NCBI GenBank assembly: GCA_035758845.1
Contig: DASTVZ010000224.1
Location: 151 to 64,150, forward strand
Length of the DNA: 64,000 bases
Reading direction: 5' to 3'
DNA from: Vicinamibacterales bacterium
Lineage (GTDB): Bacteria > Acidobacteriota > Vicinamibacteria > Vicinamibacterales > 2-12-FULL-66-21
Below are positions 4,190 to 60,609 of this stretch, piece after piece. The notes beneath the pieces are model-generated. The model saw nothing but the letters and a program-made list of their open reading frames with translations. It was not told the DNA's origin and ran no database searches. The stretch's first letter is position 1. Each line of letters opens with the position of its first letter. Both the position numbers and the translations under genes were made by a program.

Positions 4190-4267
4190 ATTGTTGATTG
4201 CTGATTTCTGATGGCTGATTGGTTTCTCGCTCTTCAATCAGCGATCAGCAATCGAAAATCAGCAATT
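4190..4267. repeat. inverted heptad array: about 4 GCTGATT-type units, a 13-nt loop, then about 4 AATCAGC-type units
   Basis: Read directly: attgttgattgctgatttctgatggctgattgg / tttctcgctcttc / aatcagcgatcagcaatcgaaaatcagcaatt. It fills the spacer between the patatin-like stop (4274) and the PLP-enzyme start (4174). Confidence 0.85.
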
Positions 4268-6238: not shown

Positions 6239-6271
6239 ATTGCTGAATGCTGATTGCTGAAGGCGGATTGC
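6239..6271. repeat. direct heptad array, TGCTGAW/GCGGATT units (about 4.5 copies)
   Basis: attgctgaatgctgattgctgaaggcggattgc lies between the divergent greA and trmH-like starts. Confidence 0.7.
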
Positions 6272-14510: not shown

Positions 14511-14540
14511 GAAATGCTGAATGCTGAATGCTGAATGAAA
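14511..14540. repeat. tandem GCTGAAT heptads (3 perfect copies)
   Basis: gaaatgctgaatgctgaatgctgaatgaaa starts 1 nt after the DUF1080 stop. Confidence 0.85.
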
Positions 14541-14558: not shown

Positions 14559-14638
14559 GGTTCTGCAGGGTTCTGACGCGTTCTCGAGCGAACCTCGTAG
14601 AACCCGGTAGAACCTTGCAGAACCTCGCAGAACCCGGA
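14559..14638. repeat. eight exactly 10-nt-phased units: 3 x GGTTCTNNNN facing 5 x AGAACCNNNN around a CTCGAG centre
   Basis: ggttctgcag ggttctgacg cgttctcgag cgaacctcgt agaacccggt agaaccttgc agaacctcgc agaacccgga. It abuts the ferritin stop at 14639. Confidence 0.9.
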
Positions 14639-15133
14639 CTACCCCGCTTTCTCGATGTGAATAAGGTAGGCCTCGACCATGATCAGATTGCGCTCCCCTG
14701 ACTGGCGAATGATGCTGAGGAGGTTGTCCATCTTGACCACTTCCTCCAGCTGCTCGTCGATGAACCACTGGAGGAAATTGCTGGCGAGGTAATCGGTCTC
14801 TTTGACCGCGAGATCCATCAGGCTGGTGATCTGGCGCGTGACTTCCTGCTCCCATTTCAGCGCCGCTTCAACCGCTGCTTCGGCCGACGCAAAGGTCGGC
14901 ACCGGCGCGGCAATCGAGGGGATGCGCAGATCCCCTTTGGTGTCGAGCACGTATTTCACGAACTTCATCGCGTGCTCTTTTTCCTCTTCGGCTTGATCGA
15001 AAAACAGCTTGGCTAGCAGCTTCAGCTGGCGCTGCTGGAAGTGTCCGGCGATGCTGAGATACTGCATGCTCGCGCCGAACTCGTGGCCGATCTGCTCGTT
15101 GAACGCTTTCGCGAGACTTGAACTAATCAACAA
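14639..15133 (-). CDS. ferritin
   Basis: LAKAFNEQIGHEFGASMQYLSIA and EEEKEHAMKF. TTG 15133 is preceded by GGAGGAGGAG. The alternative ATG start is at 15157. Confidence 0.85.
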   Translation of the reverse strand: MLISSSLAKAFNEQIGHEFGASMQYLSIAGHFQQRQLKLLAKLFFDQAEEEKEHAMKFVKYVLDTKGDLRIPSIAAPVPTFASAEAAVEAALKWEQEVTRQITSLMDLAVKETDYLASNFLQWFIDEQLEEVVKMDNLLSIIRQSGERNLIMVEAYLIHIEKAG

Positions 15134-34185: not shown

Positions 34186-35976
34186 TCAGATTCGCTGAAA
34201 GTTCTTCTCAATCTCCCGTCGCGTGATCCGCAATACGACAGGACGTCCGTGCGGACAGACGCTTGAATACGCCGTGCGACGCAGCTCCTCAAGGATGTAA
34301 CGCATCTTCTCCATCGTCAGCGGATAATTCGCCTTGACGGCAGCATGACACGCCATGGTTGCTGCGATCCGGCGCAGCGCTTCCTCGACGCGAGATCCGC
34401 GGTCGAGCCCCTCGAGATCGCTGGCCAACGCGCGGATGGCGGCCTCGCATTCACCCGGATCGAGCGCGGCGGGAAGCGCGGAGAGACGAACGCTGTCGCC
34501 GCCGAACTCCTCGATCTCGACGCCGAACTTCTCGAGCGTCGCCGCATGTGGAAGGAGCGCCTGCCGCTCAGCGGGTGAGAGCTCGATGAGAACAGGCGTC
34601 AACAGGCGCTGGCTTTCGAGCTGGCCGGACGTCAACCTCTCCATCACCTGTTCGAACAGCACGCGTTCGTGCGCCACATGTTGATCGACAATTGCAATCC
34701 CTTCATCGTCAATCGCGATGATGAACGTGTCGCGAAACTGGCCCAGGGGGATCATTGGGCGGAGGTCACCCGGTTCTACTGGGTTCTGCGTGGTCCTACC
34801 GGGTTCAGCAGGGTTCGACAGGGCGCTGCCGACAGCGTTCTCAGTTGCTGGCTCCATAAGATTGCGCCATGGCCCGAGCGGTTCGGGCGCCCACCGGTTT
34901 CCAACCGTCGCGCCGGCAAGGACACCAGGAATCGCCATCGGACGCGGCTCCAGCTGGCGCGGCGAGAACGGCGTGAATTGCAACTCAGGGGCGCGGCCTT
35001 GCCCGAGCGCTTCCGCGAGCGCGCGGCGAAGCACTTCGTGCACGAGTGACTGCTCGAGAAACCGCACTTCCGCCTTGGTCGGGTGAACGTTGACGTCGAC
35101 GCGATCGGCGGGCATGCGGATGAAGAGATGCACTTCGGGACTGCGTTCTTTGATCGTCGCCACGCTATACGCTTCCGAAATCGCGTGCGCGATCGTGCGG
35201 TCCTTGACGATGCGGCGGTTGACGAATACGTTTTGCGCGCCGCGCACCGGCCCCTGATCGCCGAGCGCCGCGACGTACCCGTGAATCTGCAGCCCGGCGG
35301 CCTCTTTGCGGACTTCGATCAAGTCGAGGCGCTCGCCAAACAGCTGATAGAAGCGGTCGCCCAGACCGTTGGCTGGCGGGCACTCGAGCAGCTTTCGTCC
35401 GCCGCTGGTGAGCGAGAAGCCAACCTCGGGATACCCGAGGGCCATCTGCGTCACGAGGCGGGAGATCTGCGCGGATTCGGCGCTATCCGACTTCAGGAAC
35501 TTGCGCCGCGCCGGCAGGTTGTAGAACAGATCCGCGACCTCGATCGAGGTGCCTTCGGGGACGCCGACTTCGCGCTGCGAGGCAACCGTGCCGCCATTGA
35601 CGCGTATCTCGGTGCCTGACGCGCTGCCGCGCGCGCGTGTGCGCAACTGGAAATGCGACACCGACGCGATACTCGGCAGGGCTTCGCCTCTGAATCCCAA
35701 CGTGAGAATGGCGCCGAGATCTTCCGGCGTCGCAATTTTGCTCGTCGCGTGACGCTCGATCGCGAGCCGCGCGTCCTCCGGATCCATCCCCTCTCCATCG
35801 TCCTCGACGCGAAGCAGCTTCTTGCCGCCGAGCTCGATGGTGATCACGATGCGCGTCGCCTGCGCATCGAGCGAGTTCTCGATCAGTTCCTTGACCACCG
35901 AAGCCGGACGCTCGACGACTTCGCCGGCGGCGATTTGATTGGCGAGGCGGAGGGGAAGACGATGAATGCGAGGCAT
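34186..35976 (-). CDS. mutL: DNA mismatch repair protein MutL
   Basis: IAAGEVVERPASVVKELIENSLDA ATPase motif and a C-terminal endonuclease/dimerisation region. Confidence 0.95.
   Translation of the reverse strand: MPRIHRLPLRLANQIAAGEVVERPASVVKELIENSLDAQATRIVITIELGGKKLLRVEDDGEGMDPEDARLAIERHATSKIATPEDLGAILTLGFRGEALPSIASVSHFQLRTRARGSASGTEIRVNGGTVASQREVGVPEGTSIEVADLFYNLPARRKFLKSDSAESAQISRLVTQMALGYPEVGFSLTSGGRKLLECPPANGLGDRFYQLFGERLDLIEVRKEAAGLQIHGYVAALGDQGPVRGAQNVFVNRRIVKDRTIAHAISEAYSVATIKERSPEVHLFIRMPADRVDVNVHPTKAEVRFLEQSLVHEVLRRALAEALGQGRAPELQFTPFSPRQLEPRPMAIPGVLAGATVGNRWAPEPLGPWRNLMEPATENAVGSALSNPAEPGRTTQNPVEPGDLRPMIPLGQFRDTFIIAIDDEGIAIVDQHVAHERVLFEQVMERLTSGQLESQRLLTPVLIELSPAERQALLPHAATLEKFGVEIEEFGGDSVRLSALPAALDPGECEAAIRALASDLEGLDRGSRVEEALRRIAATMACHAAVKANYPLTMEKMRYILEELRRTAYSSVCPHGRPVVLRITRREIEKNFQRI
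34771..34830. repeat. five to six GGTTCTNNNN decamer units inside the mutL CDS
   Basis: cggttctact gggttctgcg tggtcctacc gggttcagca gggttcgaca gggcgctgcc. Same unit, phase and orientation as the left arm at 14559. Confidence 0.8.
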
Positions 35977-35978
35977 CT

Positions 35979-36183
35979 CGATTGCCGATTGTTGATTGGT
36001 GAATGCCGATTTGTCGATTGCTGATTGTCAATTGGTCATTGACGATCGCTGACTGGCGATTGGTGATTGGCGATTGGTGATTGCCGACGGGTGTTCGAGT
36101 ATGACCAGGAGGTAAACACAATCGTCACTCCACAATCGTCAATCCAAACTCCGCAATCTACAATCCGCAATCCGCAATCGTCA
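35979..36183. repeat. large inverted heptad array: about 16 GATTGNN units, a 28-nt loop, then about 9.5 CAATCNN units
   Basis: Left arm 35979-36088, loop 36089-36116, right arm 36117-36183. It occupies the whole corA-mutL spacer and touches both the corA stop and the mutL ATG. Confidence 0.9.
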
Positions 36184-37146
36184 TATCCAGCCTTTCTTCC
36201 GAAAGAACCCGAGCATCGCCGCCGACAGGGCGAGCATGATGCCGCAGACCCACCAGAACTGCGCGTGTTCGCCGCCGGGCAAATGCGGCAACGGCACGTT
36301 CATGCCGTACATGCCGGTCAGGACGGTCAGCGGCATGAACAGCGTTGCGATGATCGTGAGCACCTTCATCACCTGATTGAGCTGGTTCGATACCGCAGAC
36401 AGGTGGGCGTCGAGGATACTCGTGATGCGATCCTGAAAAAACATCGCCTCGTCCGACAGCCTCACCAGGTGGTCATGCACATCGCGAAAACCGTACGCGA
36501 GCTGTTCGGTGATCAACGGGAATTCGCGGCGCGCCAGCCGGCCGACGACGTCGCGTTGCGGCAGCACGGTTTGGCGCAACGACGAAATGTCTTTCTTGAA
36601 ATTCAGAATCCGGCGTGCCAGCTGCGTGTTCGGGTGCTCGAACACTTCCTTTTCGAGTTTGTCGAGCTTCTCAGACAACTTGTCGACTTCGGGCCGGTAG
36701 TTGTCCACCATCGTGTCGACGATCCGGTAGAGCAACATGCCGGGCCCTTCGCCAAGCATGCGGGAGTCACGGCTGCACACCACGCCCACTTTGCCGATTG
36801 ACCGTGAGACACCGGGATGCACGGTCACCAGGAATTGTGAACCGAGAAAAAAATCGACGTCCTTGGTGGTGAAGCGATGTTCGGACGCATGAAAATCGAT
36901 TCCGTGCAGAATTACGTACAGGTAGTCGCCGTAGGACTCGATTTTCGGGTGATGCAGCTCGCTGAGAGCGTCTTCAATCGCAAGCTGATGAAAATGAAAG
37001 GTGTCGCTGAGGACTTTTGTTTCGTCAGGAGTCGGTCGATCGAGATCGACCCAGACACATATGCCGCTGCCAGGCTTGATCCAGGCGGGGTCCACGCGAT
37101 CGACGAGCTGAGTGGACCCGCCCTCGTGCTTGTAGATCCTGATCAA
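36181..37146 (-). CDS. corA: magnesium/cobalt transporter CorA
   Basis: YGMNV (GMN) motif plus two C-terminal TM helices. TTG 37146 overlaps the ppdK stop (TTGA). Confidence 0.85.
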
Positions 37147-42184: not shown

Positions 42185-42264
42185 TCCAAATCAACAATCC
42201 ACAATCACAATCGCCCAATCGACATTCAAAAAAATCAGCAATCAGCAATCCGCAATCAACAATT

Positions 42265-42267
<3 letters not shown>
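42185..42267. repeat. single-orientation heptad array, AATCNNC units (about 11 copies) with a central A7 run
   Basis: tccaaatcaacaatccacaatcacaatcgcccaatcgacattcaaaaaaatcagcaatcagcaatccgcaatcaacaatttca fills the glyQ-glyS spacer. Confidence 0.85.
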
Positions 42268-43139
<872 letters not shown>

Positions 43140-45338: not shown

Positions 45339-45376
45339 AAAAAAACAGCCACGATGATGCACGCACCATCGTGGCT
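45339..45376 (-). terminator. canonical rho-independent terminator
   Basis: The minus strand reads agccacgatg-gtgcgtgcat-catcgtggct followed by GTTTTTTTG. That is a 10-bp perfect stem and a T7 tract, downstream of the 45404..46312 gene. Confidence 0.8.
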
Positions 45377-45400
45377 ACTGGCTGCCAGCTTCTGGCTGCT
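45377..45400. repeat. short CTGGCTG heptad run (about 3-4 units)
   Basis: actggctgccagcttctggctgctgg lies between the stop at 45404 and the canonical terminator. Confidence 0.5.
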
Positions 45401-45403
45401 GGT

Positions 45404-52247: not shown

Positions 52248-52771
52248 GATCGCTCGATCAATCCCGCACGAAGGCCGCCGCGGCGGCGGAGTCGTGTTTC
52301 GACGCGGCGCATGCGCCCGGCGTCCTCCTGATTGTGGTGATCGTACCCGAGCAGGTGCAGCAAGCCATGAAGCGCAAGCACGCGCAACTCGGCCTGGTAC
52401 GAGTGGCCGGCGTCCCTCGCCTGCTTCCTGGCAGTGCCGGTGGCAATGACGATATCGCCAAGGAAACCTGTCGGGATCCGTTGTCCGGGATCCGGGATCC
52501 GGGATCCGGGATCAACCGGAAACGATAAGACGTCGGTCGGCCGATTTTTCCGGCGGTACTGTGAATTGAGTGTCTGGCTGTGGGCATCGGTGACGAGCGC
52601 GATCGCTACCTCGCCGCGTGCGACAGATGGCGCGATCGAGGCGAGCCACTGCGAGAGCCCGCCGTCGCGGACCGATCGTCCGCGACCGTCAGTCACGCTG
52701 ACATGCAAGCGTCGACCGCGCCGGTTCTCGGCGCCACCCGGCTGGCGCCGGACTTTACTGTCGGGATCCAC
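52244..52771 (-). CDS. ybeY: rRNA maturation endoribonuclease YbeY
   Basis: [11 protein letters not shown] zinc motif and DVLSFP. GTG 52771 is the first start after the phoH region and overlaps phoH by 17 nt. Confidence 0.85.
52471..52512. repeat. CCGGGAT heptads inside the ybeY CDS: 4 perfect tandem copies (52485-52512) plus 2 degenerate units
   Basis: tcgggatccgttgtccgggatccgggatccgggatccgggat. Contains four GGATCC cores. 42 nt equals 14 codons. Confidence 0.9.
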
Positions 52772-57595: not shown

Positions 57596-57610
57596 CTAAC
57601 AATGATACTT

Positions 57611-57660
57611 CGCGATTCGCGCGTTAGCGATTCGCGCGTTAGCGATTCGCGCGAATCGCG
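57611..57660. repeat. 15-nt unit cgattcgcgcgttag x2 running into an 18-bp perfect palindrome gcgattcgcgcgaatcgc
   Basis: Units at 57613-57627 and 57628-57642. Palindrome at 57642-57659. Confidence 0.85.
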
Positions 57661-57709
57661 TATCGGGATCCGGTGTGCGGGATCCGTAGTCCGGATCCCG
57701 GATCCCGAC
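57661..57709. repeat. GGATCC-core heptad array in inverted arrangement (cgggatccg ... cggatcccg)
   Basis: tatcgggatccggtgtgcgggatccgtagtccggatcccggatcccgac. Four GGATCC cores in 40 nt. Same family as the ybeY insert. Confidence 0.8.
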
Positions 57710-59450: not shown

Positions 59451-60473
59451 ATGCCGCTTCTCGATCGTTTTAGCCGTCCGTTGCGGAGCCTCCGCATTTC
59501 GGTGACCGATCGCTGTAACCTGCGATGTCAGTACTGCATGCCGGAGCCGGACTATCTCTGGCTGCCCCGCGAAAGCCTGCTGACATTCGAAGAAACTGCC
59601 GCGATCGTTGACGCGTTCACGCCGCTTGGCGTCGATCGGGTGCGGATCACTGGCGGCGAACCGCTTCTCCGCCGCGATCTGCCGGTGCTTATCGAGTCAT
59701 TGGCGGCGAAGCCGGCAATCGCTGATCTTGCGATGACCACCAACGGGGTTCTGCTCGCGGCGAATGCATCGCGACTGCGCACCGCCGGACTGCACCGAGT
59801 GACCGTCAGTCTTGACACGCTCGACCGCGAGCGCTTCCGCGCGCTGACGCGGATGGATGATTTGCACGAGGTGCTCGACGGCATCGCTGCTGCCGCGGCC
59901 GCGGGATTTACGTCGCTCAAGCTCGACACCGTGGTGATCCGCGGCGTCAATGACGATGAACTGGTGGCGCTCGTCGAATATGCGAAGAGTGTGAATTCCG
60001 AACTCCGATTCATCGAGTACATGGATGTTGGCGGGGCAACGCGCTGGACACCTTCTGCGGTTGTGTCGAGGCGCGAGATCCTCGATCGATTGCGCGCACA
60101 CTACGGGGGTGTCATGCCGATTGCGGAACAGTCGTCAGCCCCCGCGGATCGATTCCTGCTGCCTGACGGGACGACGTTCGGAATCATTTCGTCGACGACC
60201 GAGCCGTTCTGTGCATCGTGCGATCGTAGCCGCCTCACCGCGGACGGTGTCTGGCTTCTTTGCCTCTATGCAGCCACCGGCACGGACCTTCGTCGCCCGC
60301 TACGCGCAGGGGCTAGCCGCGAGGATCTTCAGCGGTTGATCGAAGCTGTATGGTCGGTTCGTGCCGACCGCGGTGCCGAAGAGCGTCTCGGGATGGATCG
60401 CGAAACGACGCTTATCCCCGTCCGGACGCTTAAGAAAGACGCTCACCTCGAAATGCATACCCGCGGCGGCTGA
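59451..60473 (+). CDS. moaA: GTP 3',8-cyclase MoaA (radical SAM)
   Basis: Start ATG 59451 (MPLLDRFSRP). CNLRCQYC radical-SAM cluster and C-terminal CASCDRSRLTADG. Confidence 0.9.
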   Translation: MPLLDRFSRPLRSLRISVTDRCNLRCQYCMPEPDYLWLPRESLLTFEETAAIVDAFTPLGVDRVRITGGEPLLRRDLPVLIESLAAKPAIADLAMTTNGVLLAANASRLRTAGLHRVTVSLDTLDRERFRALTRMDDLHEVLDGIAAAAAAGFTSLKLDTVVIRGVNDDELVALVEYAKSVNSELRFIEYMDVGGATRWTPSAVVSRREILDRLRAHYGGVMPIAEQSSAPADRFLLPDGTTFGIISSTTEPFCASCDRSRLTADGVWLLCLYAATGTDLRRPLRAGASREDLQRLIEAVWSVRADRGAEERLGMDRETTLIPVRTLKKDAHLEMHTRGG

Positions 60474-60609
60474 TTGCGGATTGCGGAGTGGCGATTGCCG
60501 ATTTCTTGATTGGCGATTGCGGATTGAGATTGCCCATCTCAATCGACAATCTCAATCGACAATCGACAATCTGAAAATCCGCAATCTACAGTCCGAAATC
60601 GGCAATCAG
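60471..60609. repeat. inverted heptad array: about 8.5 GATTGCN units, a 5-nt loop, then about 10.5 CAATCNN units
   Basis: The array starts with the moaA TGA (tgattgcggattgcgg...). Its centre is a perfect 9-bp stem, gattgagat-tgccc-atctcaatc (60522-60544). It ends 2 nt before the sigma ORF. Confidence 0.9.

What the first reader, a model, noticed from the sequence alone, without database searches (positions are those of the whole stretch)
34771..34830. The GGTTCT decamer array recurs inside the MutL interdomain linker
Five to six 10-nt-phased GGTTCTNNNN units are embedded in mutL. They have the same unit and orientation as the left arm of the intergenic array at 14559-14588. The block is 60 nt, or 20 codons, and encodes part of ALSNPAEPGRTTQNPVEPG. 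The MutL linker between the ATPase and C-terminal domains is known to be disordered and poorly conserved, so it is a permissive landing site. A 10-nt unit keeps the frame only in groups of three. This links the intergenic arrays to a process that also acts inside genes.
Basis: partly seen in the sequence, partly recalled or inferred. Interest (0 to 1): 0.65.

Follow-up and report, generated by a model that had tools for sequence, protein, structure and literature searches.

The report
Ten-base repeat array encoding MutL linker
Part of the flexible linker of the DNA-repair protein MutL in this soil acidobacterium is encoded by a tandem array of 10-base units from the same repeat family that forms hairpins between genes; the array is read in all three frames, changes length by slippage, and its DNA core is conserved more strongly than the protein needs.

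Summary
Window 34772-34821 holds five 10-nt-phased units (two exact GGTTCT, three with one mismatch). They lie in mutL (34186-35976, minus strand), at residues 385-403, just before the C-terminal domain. Lag-10, lag-20 and lag-30 identities are equal, so the period is 10, not 30. On the coding strand the unit is AGAACC-YNGY. It is read in three frames as NP / EP / RT, which gives the decapeptide NPxEPGRTxQ.

The unit profile matches genome-wide Vicinamibacterales/Acidobacteriota arrays even at non-core positions. Those arrays are mostly intergenic hairpins. Relatives keep the periodic DNA. Synonymous third positions inside GAACC are 92.5% identical between relatives, against 52% elsewhere in the array and 59% in the rest of mutL.

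Two alleles that are 98% identical differ by one exact 30-nt indel flanked by a 10-nt direct repeat, which points to slippage. More distant relatives carry 7-nt arrays, (GATCNNN)n or (CAGCTNC)n, in the same linker.

Best reading: this is a coding, one-armed member of a dispersed short-period repeat family. It is tolerated in a disordered linker and changes by frame-preserving slippage. Why the core is conserved is unresolved. I found no evidence for a frameshift "mutator switch". I rate it a new variant of a known kind (intragenic REP/RPE-like repeats; non-triplet coding repeats).

The parts
34772..34821 (-). Five 10-nt units. On the coding (minus) strand, 5' to 3': CGAACCCTGC TGAACCCGGT AGGACCACGC AGAACCCAGT AGAACC. 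They are read in three frames as S-NP-A-EP-G-RT-TQ-NP-V-EP.
34771..34830 (-). The block as reported. Its last 9 nt on the + strand (GGCGCTGCC) are not a recognisable unit.
34765..34848 (-). Hypervariable part of the MutL linker (residues 377-404). No invariant column across 32 relatives that are 86-95% identical.
34756..34995 (-). MutL interdomain linker (residues 328-407), between the region matching solved N-terminal domains (4-327) and the region matching solved C-terminal domains (408-596).
34186..35976 (-). mutL, 596 aa, endonuclease type (DQHVAHERVLFE motif). It is 100% identical to NCBI HEU4939234.1 from a Vicinamibacterales MAG.
14559..14640 (.). Intergenic two-armed decamer array between convergent ORFs: three GGTTCT-type units, then five AGAACC-type units. 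It folds as a hairpin (-47.5 kcal/mol, z = -6.2).
35979..36189 (.). Heptamer hairpin array, (GATTGNN)~15 - loop - (NNCAATC)~10, in the corA-mutL spacer directly upstream of the mutL start. Relatives have a heptamer array in the same position.

Best explanation
The block is a coding, one-armed copy of a dispersed short-period repeat family with unit A-GAACC-Y-N-G-Y (10 nt). The family is abundant in Vicinamibacterales/Acidobacteriota genomes. There it mostly forms inverted two-armed arrays, that is, hairpins between genes.

In mutL the array sits in the disordered interdomain linker, with AGAACC on the sense strand. Because 10 is not a multiple of 3, successive units are read in the three frames: xxG-AAC-Cxx = N-P, GAA-CCx = E-P, and AGA-ACC = R-T. 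Three units therefore make one decapeptide, NPxEPGRTxQ.

The array is inherited vertically. It changes length by slipped-strand mispairing, or direct-repeat recombination, between units. Only changes that keep the frame survive, such as three units (30 nt) or a 10+10+7 module (27 nt). The linker tolerates the resulting Pro/Glu/Asn/Gly/Thr-rich peptide.

Shown here: the periodicity, family membership at unit level, three-frame coding, copy-number variation, one clean slippage event, and nucleotide-level maintenance of the core.

Inferred: tolerance because the linker is disordered; purging of out-of-frame slips; and the cause of core maintenance. That cause is either selection on a DNA/RNA-level signal or core-biased homogenisation.
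For: - Periodicity and rarity of the pattern.
- Location in the linker.
- Relatives: of 76 mutL linkers, 12 are decamer-periodic with lag 10 = 20 = 30, and their DNA shows phased units.
- Same family: the unit profile of mutL arrays equals that of genome arrays at non-core positions. Position 7 is C/T, position 9 is G (0.93 versus 0.79), position 10 is C/T.
Of the 80 loci shown, 58 come from 13 Acidobacteriota assemblies, with up to 20 per assembly. Most are two-armed and intergenic.
- DNA rather than peptide is what is kept, by codon usage in the array versus the rest of mutL: GAA 81% versus 30% (p = 3e-13), Arg AGA+CGA 82% versus 9%, ACC 70% versus 26%, GTA 37% versus 3%.
- Synonymous third positions inside GAACC are 92.5% identical between 11 relatives. 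The figure is 52% outside the core in the same array, 59% in the rest of the gene, and 39% for chance GAACC elsewhere in mutL. Four-fold sites are only 48-69% identical between the window and its relatives.
- The codon before Asn ends in G in 26 of 27 cases although it encodes six different amino acids.
- Slippage: P0102 and P0209 are 98% identical and differ by one 30-nt indel flanked by the direct repeat GCAGAACCCT. A 27-nt module is present twice or once within a single 90%-identity cluster. L006 lacks exactly 10 codons.
- MutL linkers are unstructured: PMC6902014, PMC6393296.
Against: - The mutL copy lacks the second, inverted arm that typifies the family, and it has no significant fold (z = -1.5).
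- Origin by insertion versus birth in place is unresolved.
- Simple slippage turnover should homogenise spacers as well as cores, but spacers are as diverged as neutral sites. Slippage alone therefore does not explain the conserved core.
- Sequences are phylogenetically related, so the codon and identity statistics are not independent samples.
- Disorder of this particular linker rests on homology and on a lack of conservation. The AlphaFold model was too poor to use (mean pLDDT 37.8).
Confidence: 0.75

Rival explanations
1. The array is a functional nucleic-acid signal that happens to be coding. The phased GAACC/GGTTC cores, one per helical turn, would be bound by a host protein, or would pair as RNA with GGUUC arms of other transcripts. 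Purifying selection on that signal would keep the core inside mutL. This extends the best explanation rather than excluding it.
For: Core-specific conservation at synonymous sites, while the spacers of the same array drift. The same core and spacer preferences occur in hundreds of intergenic units. Lineage-shared quirks, such as the TGG codon in the same unit of L002, L005 and L007, argue for stable orthology rather than constant overwriting.
Against: No binding factor or partner RNA has been identified. The window has no Rfam hit. Other clades use unrelated heptamer cores (GATC, CAGCT) at the same site, which suggests that no single motif is needed in mutL. Homogenisation by slippage plus ectopic conversion could mimic selection.
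Confidence: 0.3
2. The array arrived as one arm of a mobile REPIN/MITE-like hairpin element that inserted into the linker, with later loss of the other arm.
For: In MAG JBPYFA01, 16 listed copies are discrete 175-382-nt elements with sharp ends and a shared architecture: 4-5 outer decamers, a GGTTCGGTTCTTG-like junction, alternating 10- and 8-nt units, a loop, and the mirror image. Intragenic REPs and Rickettsia palindromic elements (RPEs) are known, often in repair genes and in linkers (PMC3733652, PMC10969869).
Against: No relative retains a second arm in mutL. No empty site with clean boundaries was seen: L004-type alleles have a non-periodic peptide of the same length. No target-site duplication was seen. 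The only recent event observed is local slippage.
Confidence: 0.2
3. The array is a contingency locus. Gain or loss of one or two units shifts the frame, removes the MutL endonuclease/dimerisation domain, and gives a reversible mutator state.
For: Three-unit slips do occur between near-identical alleles, so one-unit slips are mechanistically expected. Adding or removing one unit in the window gene gives a stop at aa 404-406. mutL repeat switches exist in Salmonella (PMC2955026) and, from my own knowledge, in E. coli.
Against: None of the loci L001-L080 in which both flanking anchor motifs were found (about 66 of 80) is out of frame, and only one of about 130 proteins is. That single case, P0132/L201, is on a contig that also has a split PPDK and a short CorA. 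Other split mutL genes on long contigs are frameshifted away from the array. Units are imperfect, with adjacent units about 60% identical, unlike known hypermutable tracts.
Confidence: 0.08
4. The decapeptide NPxEPGRTxQ is a protein-level repeat selected for linker function, and the DNA periodicity is a by-product.
For: The peptide motif is recognisable in about 100 relatives. In yeast, scrambling MutL-alpha linkers impairs mismatch repair (PMC6393296).
Against: Lag-10 and lag-20 identities equal lag-30. Codon choice runs against the gene's own usage in exactly the way the DNA motif requires. The nucleotide G or C flanking the Asn codon is kept while the neighbouring amino acid varies. The hypervariable stretch of the linker (residues 377-404) has no invariant residue. 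Other clades have entirely different peptides there.
Confidence: 0.05

Closest known systems
Intragenic REPs and Rickettsia palindromic elements (RPEs)
   Same: A dispersed, mostly intergenic, hairpin-forming repeat family also occurs in frame inside conserved genes, notably DNA replication and repair genes, at linkers or loops, and adds 20-30 residues (PMC3733652, PMC10969869).
   Different: Here the repeat is a tandem array of 10-nt units, not a single 20-150-bp palindrome. The genic copy has one arm only. It is read in three frames. Its copy number varies by slippage. No RAYT-type (REP-associated tyrosine) transposase link was tested.
Heterogeneous heptameric repeat arrays of Xanthomonas and Nostoc, (GGGANTN)n; cyanobacterial STRR heptamers
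   Same: Abundant intergenic tandem arrays with conserved core positions and variable positions, length variation between close relatives, and sometimes inverted pairs (PMC4692102). The window and its relatives are full of such heptamer arrays.
   Different: Those arrays are reported as under-represented in coding regions. Here a 10-nt family, and in sister clades 7-nt families, encode a protein segment. The cores are different and not G-rich.
Non-triplet coding repeats of contingency loci (Neisseria opa CTCTT, Haemophilus tetranucleotides; my own knowledge)
   Same: The unit length is not a multiple of three, so the repeat is translated in rotating frames and only certain copy numbers keep the frame.
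   Different: Those tracts are perfect, hypermutable and found out of frame in populations. Here units are imperfect, orthologous across species, and no convincing out-of-frame allele was found.
mutL hexanucleotide repeat switch of Salmonella and E. coli (PMC2955026)
   Same: A tandem repeat inside mutL whose copy number changes by slippage.
   Different: That repeat is 6 bp, in frame, lies in the ATPase domain, and alters function by adding or removing two residues. Here the repeat is 10 nt, lies in the linker, and in-frame variants look neutral.

Membership tests
GGTTCT/AGAACC decamer array family of Vicinamibacterales | Tandem units with 10-nt period and a GAACC core | tested here: met
   five phased units; lag-10 identity 0.62.
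GGTTCT/AGAACC decamer array family of Vicinamibacterales | Family-specific preferences at non-core positions (A before the core; Y-N-G-Y after it) | tested here: met
   43 mutL units against 948 genomic units give the same profile.
GGTTCT/AGAACC decamer array family of Vicinamibacterales | Two inverted arms forming a hairpin | tested here: not met
   The mutL array is one-armed, with fold z = -1.5. The intergenic copy has z = -6.2. One-armed copies also exist outside genes.
REP / REPIN (RAYT-mobilised palindromes) | A short palindromic unit with a GTAG or CGTC tag | tested here: inconclusive
   Many units read G-T/C-A-G-AACC, so GTAG or GCAG recurs. But it lies inside every unit, not at one end of a palindrome.
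REP / REPIN (RAYT-mobilised palindromes) | Association with a Y1 (HUH) RAYT transposase gene | not tested
   No search for transposase genes next to arrays was made.
In-frame intragenic mobile repeat (RPE-like) | Presence/absence polymorphism with clean element boundaries between orthologues | tested here: not met
   Orthologues differ in unit number, not in whole-element presence. Non-periodic alleles (L004 type) have the same length.
Phase-variable contingency locus | Near-perfect repeat tract | tested here: not met
   Adjacent units share about 60% identity. The core is conserved and the spacers vary.
Phase-variable contingency locus | Out-of-frame alleles in natural populations | tested here: inconclusive
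   One case among about 200 alleles (P0132/L201), on a contig with other broken genes. No read-level data are available.
MutL interdomain linker | Lies between the GHKL/transducer N-terminal domain and the MutL_C dimerisation/endonuclease domain, and is not conserved | tested here: met
   array at residues 385-403, domains end at about 327 and restart at about 408, and there are no invariant columns at 377-404.

The most novel reading that the evidence does not exclude
The phased short cores (GAACC every 10 nt here; GATC or CAGCT every 7 nt in sister clades) would be a nucleic-acid signal read by a host factor or an RNA partner. On this reading, Vicinamibacterales repeatedly build the MutL linker out of such arrays because this ties mutL to the repeat system. 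The tie could be regulation through the array, or a slippage-prone site where a one-unit change truncates MutL at about aa 405 and reversibly raises the mutation rate.
Probability: 0.15. Interest if true: 0.85.

Novelty: new variant of a known kind. Interest (0 to 1): 0.6.

Why it matters
It gives a clean natural case in which a non-triplet DNA repeat family, normally intergenic, supplies protein sequence. It can do so because a disordered linker accepts all three reading frames of the unit.

The conserved object is the DNA core, not the peptide. That is unusual inside a housekeeping gene, and it implies either a hidden DNA/RNA-level function or a core-biased homogenising process. Both alternatives are testable by recoding the array.

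Across one bacterial order, 45 of 76 mutL linkers carry short-period repeats (7, 9, 10 or 24 nt). This makes the mutL linker a convenient marker locus for studying how these arrays are born, grow and die.

The host gene is a mismatch-repair gene, and one-unit slips would abolish its endonuclease domain. The locus is therefore also a candidate, so far unsupported, for a mutator switch.

The decamer hairpin elements and heptamer arrays of Vicinamibacterales do not appear in the literature I could search.

Tried and rejected
- Rfam scan of the whole window at gathering thresholds gave no match.
- Folding the mutL array as RNA gave no significant structure, so it is not a hairpin like the intergenic copy.
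- The AlphaFold2 model of MutL built from a 32-sequence alignment had mean pLDDT 37.8. It was too poor to support or refute disorder and was not used.
- I searched for frameshifted alleles. In the loci where both anchor motifs flanking the linker were found (about 66 of 80), the anchors are always in the same frame.
- A second protein search with the N-terminal domain plus linker found several short proteins. Most are contig-edge fragments. P0132 is split inside the array, but on a contig with other broken genes. P0170 and P0199 are split elsewhere. I reject this as evidence for a switch.
- The 'peptide repeat with incidental DNA periodicity' idea is rejected on codon usage and synonymous-site tests.
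- Chance is rejected. An assembly artefact is rejected because the array recurs in more than 100 independent assemblies.
- Literature searches for heptanucleotide repeats plus Acidobacteria, and for Vicinamibacter plus tandem repeat, found nothing. One query was malformed.
- I considered rare-codon pausing at a domain boundary. It is rejected as the sole cause because it does not explain the fixed G before AAC and the fixed C after it.
Full report
**The observation**

Read on the + strand, window 34772-34821 is GGTTCTACTG GGTTCTGCGT GGTCCTACCG GGTTCAGCAG GGTTCGACAG. That is five units in strict 10-nt phase: two exact GGTTCT and three with one mismatch. The following GGCGCTGCC is not a unit.

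Base identity at lags 10, 20 and 30 is 0.62, 0.68 and 0.63, and no other lag exceeds 0.42. Among all 60-nt windows of the 64 kb, this one has the second-highest lag-10 score. Only the intergenic array at 14588-14647 scores higher.

Three phased GGTTC with up to one mismatch occur 7 times, all in these two places. The chance expectation is 0.02. Tandem Repeats Finder independently reports period 10.

**Where it is**

The block lies in a 596-aa ORF on the minus strand, 34186-35976. This is MutL. Pfam finds HATPase_c and DNA_mis_repair at residues 22-324 and MutL_C at 411-551. Solved MutL N-terminal domains match residues 4-327 and C-terminal domains match 408-596.

The protein is 100% identical to NCBI HEU4939234.1, a MutL endonuclease of a Vicinamibacterales (Acidobacteriota) MAG.

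The array encodes residues 385-403, at the end of the interdomain linker. Across 32 relatives that are 86-95% identical, residues 377-404 contain no invariant column, while both flanks are almost invariant. MutL linkers are known to be unstructured (PMC6902014, PMC6393296). My own AlphaFold model was too poor to add anything.

**How a 10-nt unit codes**

On the sense strand the unit is AGAACC plus four bases. Successive units fall in the three frames:
- xxG-AAC-Cxx gives N-P.
- GAA-CCx gives E-P.
- AGA-ACC (AGG-ACC in the window) gives R-T.

Three units therefore make the decapeptide NPxEPGRTxQ. Lag-10 identity equals lag-30 identity, so the DNA unit is primary, not a 30-nt peptide repeat.

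**Relatives**

A protein search returned 120 MutL proteins at 83-95% identity, almost all from soil metagenomes or Vicinamibacterales MAGs. Their linkers carry from about half a copy to 4.5 copies of NPVEPGRTPQ at the same place.

Eighty metagenome loci gave the DNA. In the closest clade the linker DNA is a phased series of [A/C/G]GAACC-YNGY units. L005 and L007 have eight units, L006 has five, and L057 has about 13.1 copies by Tandem Repeats Finder.

That is not what is found.

**Same family as the intergenic arrays**

I collected every unit defined only by two GAACC cores 10 nt apart. The 43 mutL units and 948 units from genomic arrays have the same profile at positions the definition does not fix:
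- position 1: A > C;
- position 7: C/T;
- position 9: G (0.93 and 0.79);
- position 10: C/T.

Of the 80 loci listed, 58 come from 13 Acidobacteriota assemblies, many labelled Vicinamibacterales, with up to 20 loci from one MAG. The other 22 are singletons from other phyla.

Most Acidobacteriota copies are two-armed, (GGTTCTN4)n - loop - (AGAACCN4)n, and lie outside credible ORFs. The window's own intergenic copy, between convergent ORFs, folds at -47.5 kcal/mol with z = -6.2.

In MAG JBPYFA01 the arrays are the arms of discrete 175-382-nt elements with a shared architecture and sharp ends. These resemble REPINs or MITEs. The mutL copy has one arm and no significant fold.

**The DNA core is what is conserved, not the peptide**

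Codon usage inside the array departs from the rest of mutL in the direction the motif requires:

| Codon(s) | In the array | Rest of mutL |
|---|---|---|
| GAA (Glu) | 81% | 30% (p = 3e-13) |
| AGA + CGA (Arg) | 82% | 9% |
| ACC (Thr) | 70% | 26% |
| GTA (Val) | 37% | 3% |
| AAC (Asn) | 100% | 69% |

Between the window and ten relatives, only 48-69% of four-fold sites in the rest of the gene are identical. Identity of synonymous third positions across the 11 sequences is as follows:

| Class of third position | Identity |
|---|---|
| Inside GAACC, in the array | 92.5% |
| Outside the core, same array | 52% |
| Rest of mutL | 59% |
| Chance GAACC elsewhere in mutL | 39% |

The codon before Asn ends in G in 26 of 27 cases although it encodes six different amino acids. 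The codon before Thr is xGA in 15 of 26 cases, against 5 of 248 elsewhere.

The sequences are related, so these are not independent samples. But the contrast within one array is large. It shows either selection at nucleotide level or a homogenising process that acts on the core only.

**How the length changes**

Unique linker lengths in 102 close relatives peak at 21, 31 and 41-44 aa. L006 lacks exactly 10 codons relative to L005 and L007.

The clearest case is P0102 (609 aa) against P0209 (599 aa). They are 98% identical, with a single 10-aa gap, QNPREPGRTP, in the array. At DNA level this is an exact 30-nt indel. The 10-nt sequence GCAGAACCCT lies both before it and at its end, and there is only one other mismatch in 150 nt. 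This is the signature of slippage or direct-repeat recombination between units that share a frame.

Steps other than 30 nt also occur. A 27-nt module (10+10+7 nt, ENLVEPGRT) is present twice or once within one 90%-identity cluster. Runs of 9-nt units also occur (L053).

**A wider pattern**

Among 76 mutL linkers that could be delimited, the classes are (null 95th percentile 0.51):

| Linker class | Number |
|---|---|
| Heptamer-periodic | 20 |
| Decamer-periodic | 12 |
| 9-nt family | 5 |
| 24-nt codon repeat | 8 |
| No periodicity | 31 |

The heptamer linkers are literally arrays such as (GATCNNN)17-25, giving DPGSLIS or GDQGSRI. Others are (CAGCTNC)n or (CGGCTTC)n, giving QLPASGF. The window has the same kinds of heptamers between genes.

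In about 370 kb of DNA flanking these mutL genes, at most one other coding array was seen, at the N-terminus of PPDK in L034. The mutL linker is therefore a marked hot spot.

Coding cases elsewhere do exist:
- an ABC transporter (L171);
- a membrane protein with (VLRGS)n (L090);
- possibly the N-terminus of PriA, where (GAACCCG)n gives NPEPGT (L130).

**Mutator switch?**

One unit more or less in the window gene gives a stop at aa 404-406, which removes the endonuclease/dimerisation domain. Three-unit slips demonstrably occur.

However, in the loci where both anchor motifs were found (about 66 of 80), none is out of frame. Among about 130 proteins, only P0132/L201 is split inside the array. 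Its contig also has a split PPDK and a short CorA. Other split mutL genes on long contigs are broken away from the array. This looks like assembly noise. The idea remains untested rather than supported.

**What is known**

- Intragenic REPs, and RPEs inserted in frame, often in replication and repair genes and in linkers or loops, are documented (PMC3733652, PMC10969869).
- Heterogeneous heptamer arrays with conserved and variable positions are known between genes in Xanthomonas and Nostoc (PMC4692102).
- Non-triplet coding repeats are the basis of contingency loci (my own knowledge).
- mutL carries a 6-bp repeat switch in Salmonella (PMC2955026).
- I found no paper on Vicinamibacterales repeats.

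What differs here is the combination of features: a tandem array family with a 10-nt unit (7-nt in sister clades); a one-armed coding copy read in three frames; stable orthology; core conservation at nucleotide level; and recurrent occupation of one linker across an order.

**Verdict**

I rate it a new variant of a known kind. Interest is moderate to high because the nucleotide-level conservation is unexplained and the host gene is mutL.

Noticed in passing
window 4190-4266, 6239-6271, 14513-14537, 35979-36189, 42185-42314, 45372-45402, 57609-57707, 60472-60607: Nearly every intergenic gap holds heptamer arrays, often as inverted pairs such as (GATTGNN)n - loop - (NNCAATC)n. Cores differ between arrays (ATTGCTG, GATTGCC, AATCAGC and others), so the shared feature is the 7-nt period rather than one sequence.
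   Followed up: partly
window 52472-52513 and 57691-57707: (CGGGATC)6 and (CCGGATC)2.4 arrays in apparent intergenic gaps. The same GATC-core heptamer builds the whole MutL linker in sister clades, for example L037 with 17 units and L051 with about 25.
   Followed up: partly
window 35979-36189; L003 1-69; L005 1178-1252; L007 2063-2130; L009 1076-1146: The heptamer hairpin array in the corA-mutL spacer, ending 3 nt from the mutL start codon, is kept at the same position in relatives. It would be part of the mutL 5' leader if the two genes are co-transcribed.
   Followed up: partly
L091, L095, L097, L101, L102, L109, L113, L115, L116, L120, L127, L134, L138, L140, L141, L148 (MAG JBPYFA01): Discrete 175-382-nt hairpin elements with a shared plan: 4-5 outer decamers, a GGTTCGGTTCTTG-like junction, alternating 10- and 8-nt units, a loop, and the mirror image. 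AGATC is often found next to the ends. They look like a REPIN/MITE-like family not described in the literature I searched.
   Followed up: partly
L090 3788-4208: A 753-codon stop-free frame encoding a membrane protein contains about 140 residues of (VLRGS)n and (VLPGSVPPGS)n built from GTTCT cores with a 15-nt period. This is a second, much longer coding use of the same core, in the opposite orientation.
   Followed up: no
L171 3948-4072; L130 7103-7170: Two heptamer arrays lie inside an ABC transporter near the junction of the membrane and ATPase domains. (GAACCCG)n, read as NPEPGT x3, lies at or just upstream of the N-terminus of PriA.
   Followed up: no
L201 5140-5215 (ENA contig_18115): mutL is split into two ORFs inside a 68-nt array (units of 10, 9, 10, 10, 10, 10 and 9 nt). 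The contig also has a split PPDK and a short CorA, so this is probably a long-read indel error. It remains the only candidate out-of-frame allele.
   Followed up: yes
L063, L064, L068, L069, L076-L079 (mutL at 67-69% identity): The same linker carries a true 24-nt (8-aa) repeat, APT[GS][ED]G.[IF], with no lag-8 signal. This is a codon-level repeat, unlike the 7- and 10-nt arrays.
   Followed up: no
L110 5261-5556 (OW818653.1): A run of 30 phased AGAACC decamers (exact or with one mismatch) on an unrelated 2-Mb metagenome chromosome. Single decamer-array hits also occur in Streptomyces, Sphingomonas, Paenibacillus, Sorangium and others. I did not examine what these are.
   Followed up: no
window 57612-57653: A perfect 15-nt tandem repeat, GCGATTCGCGCGTTA x2.8 (100% matches), in an intergenic gap, overlapping heptamer-like TTCGCGA units.
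   Followed up: no
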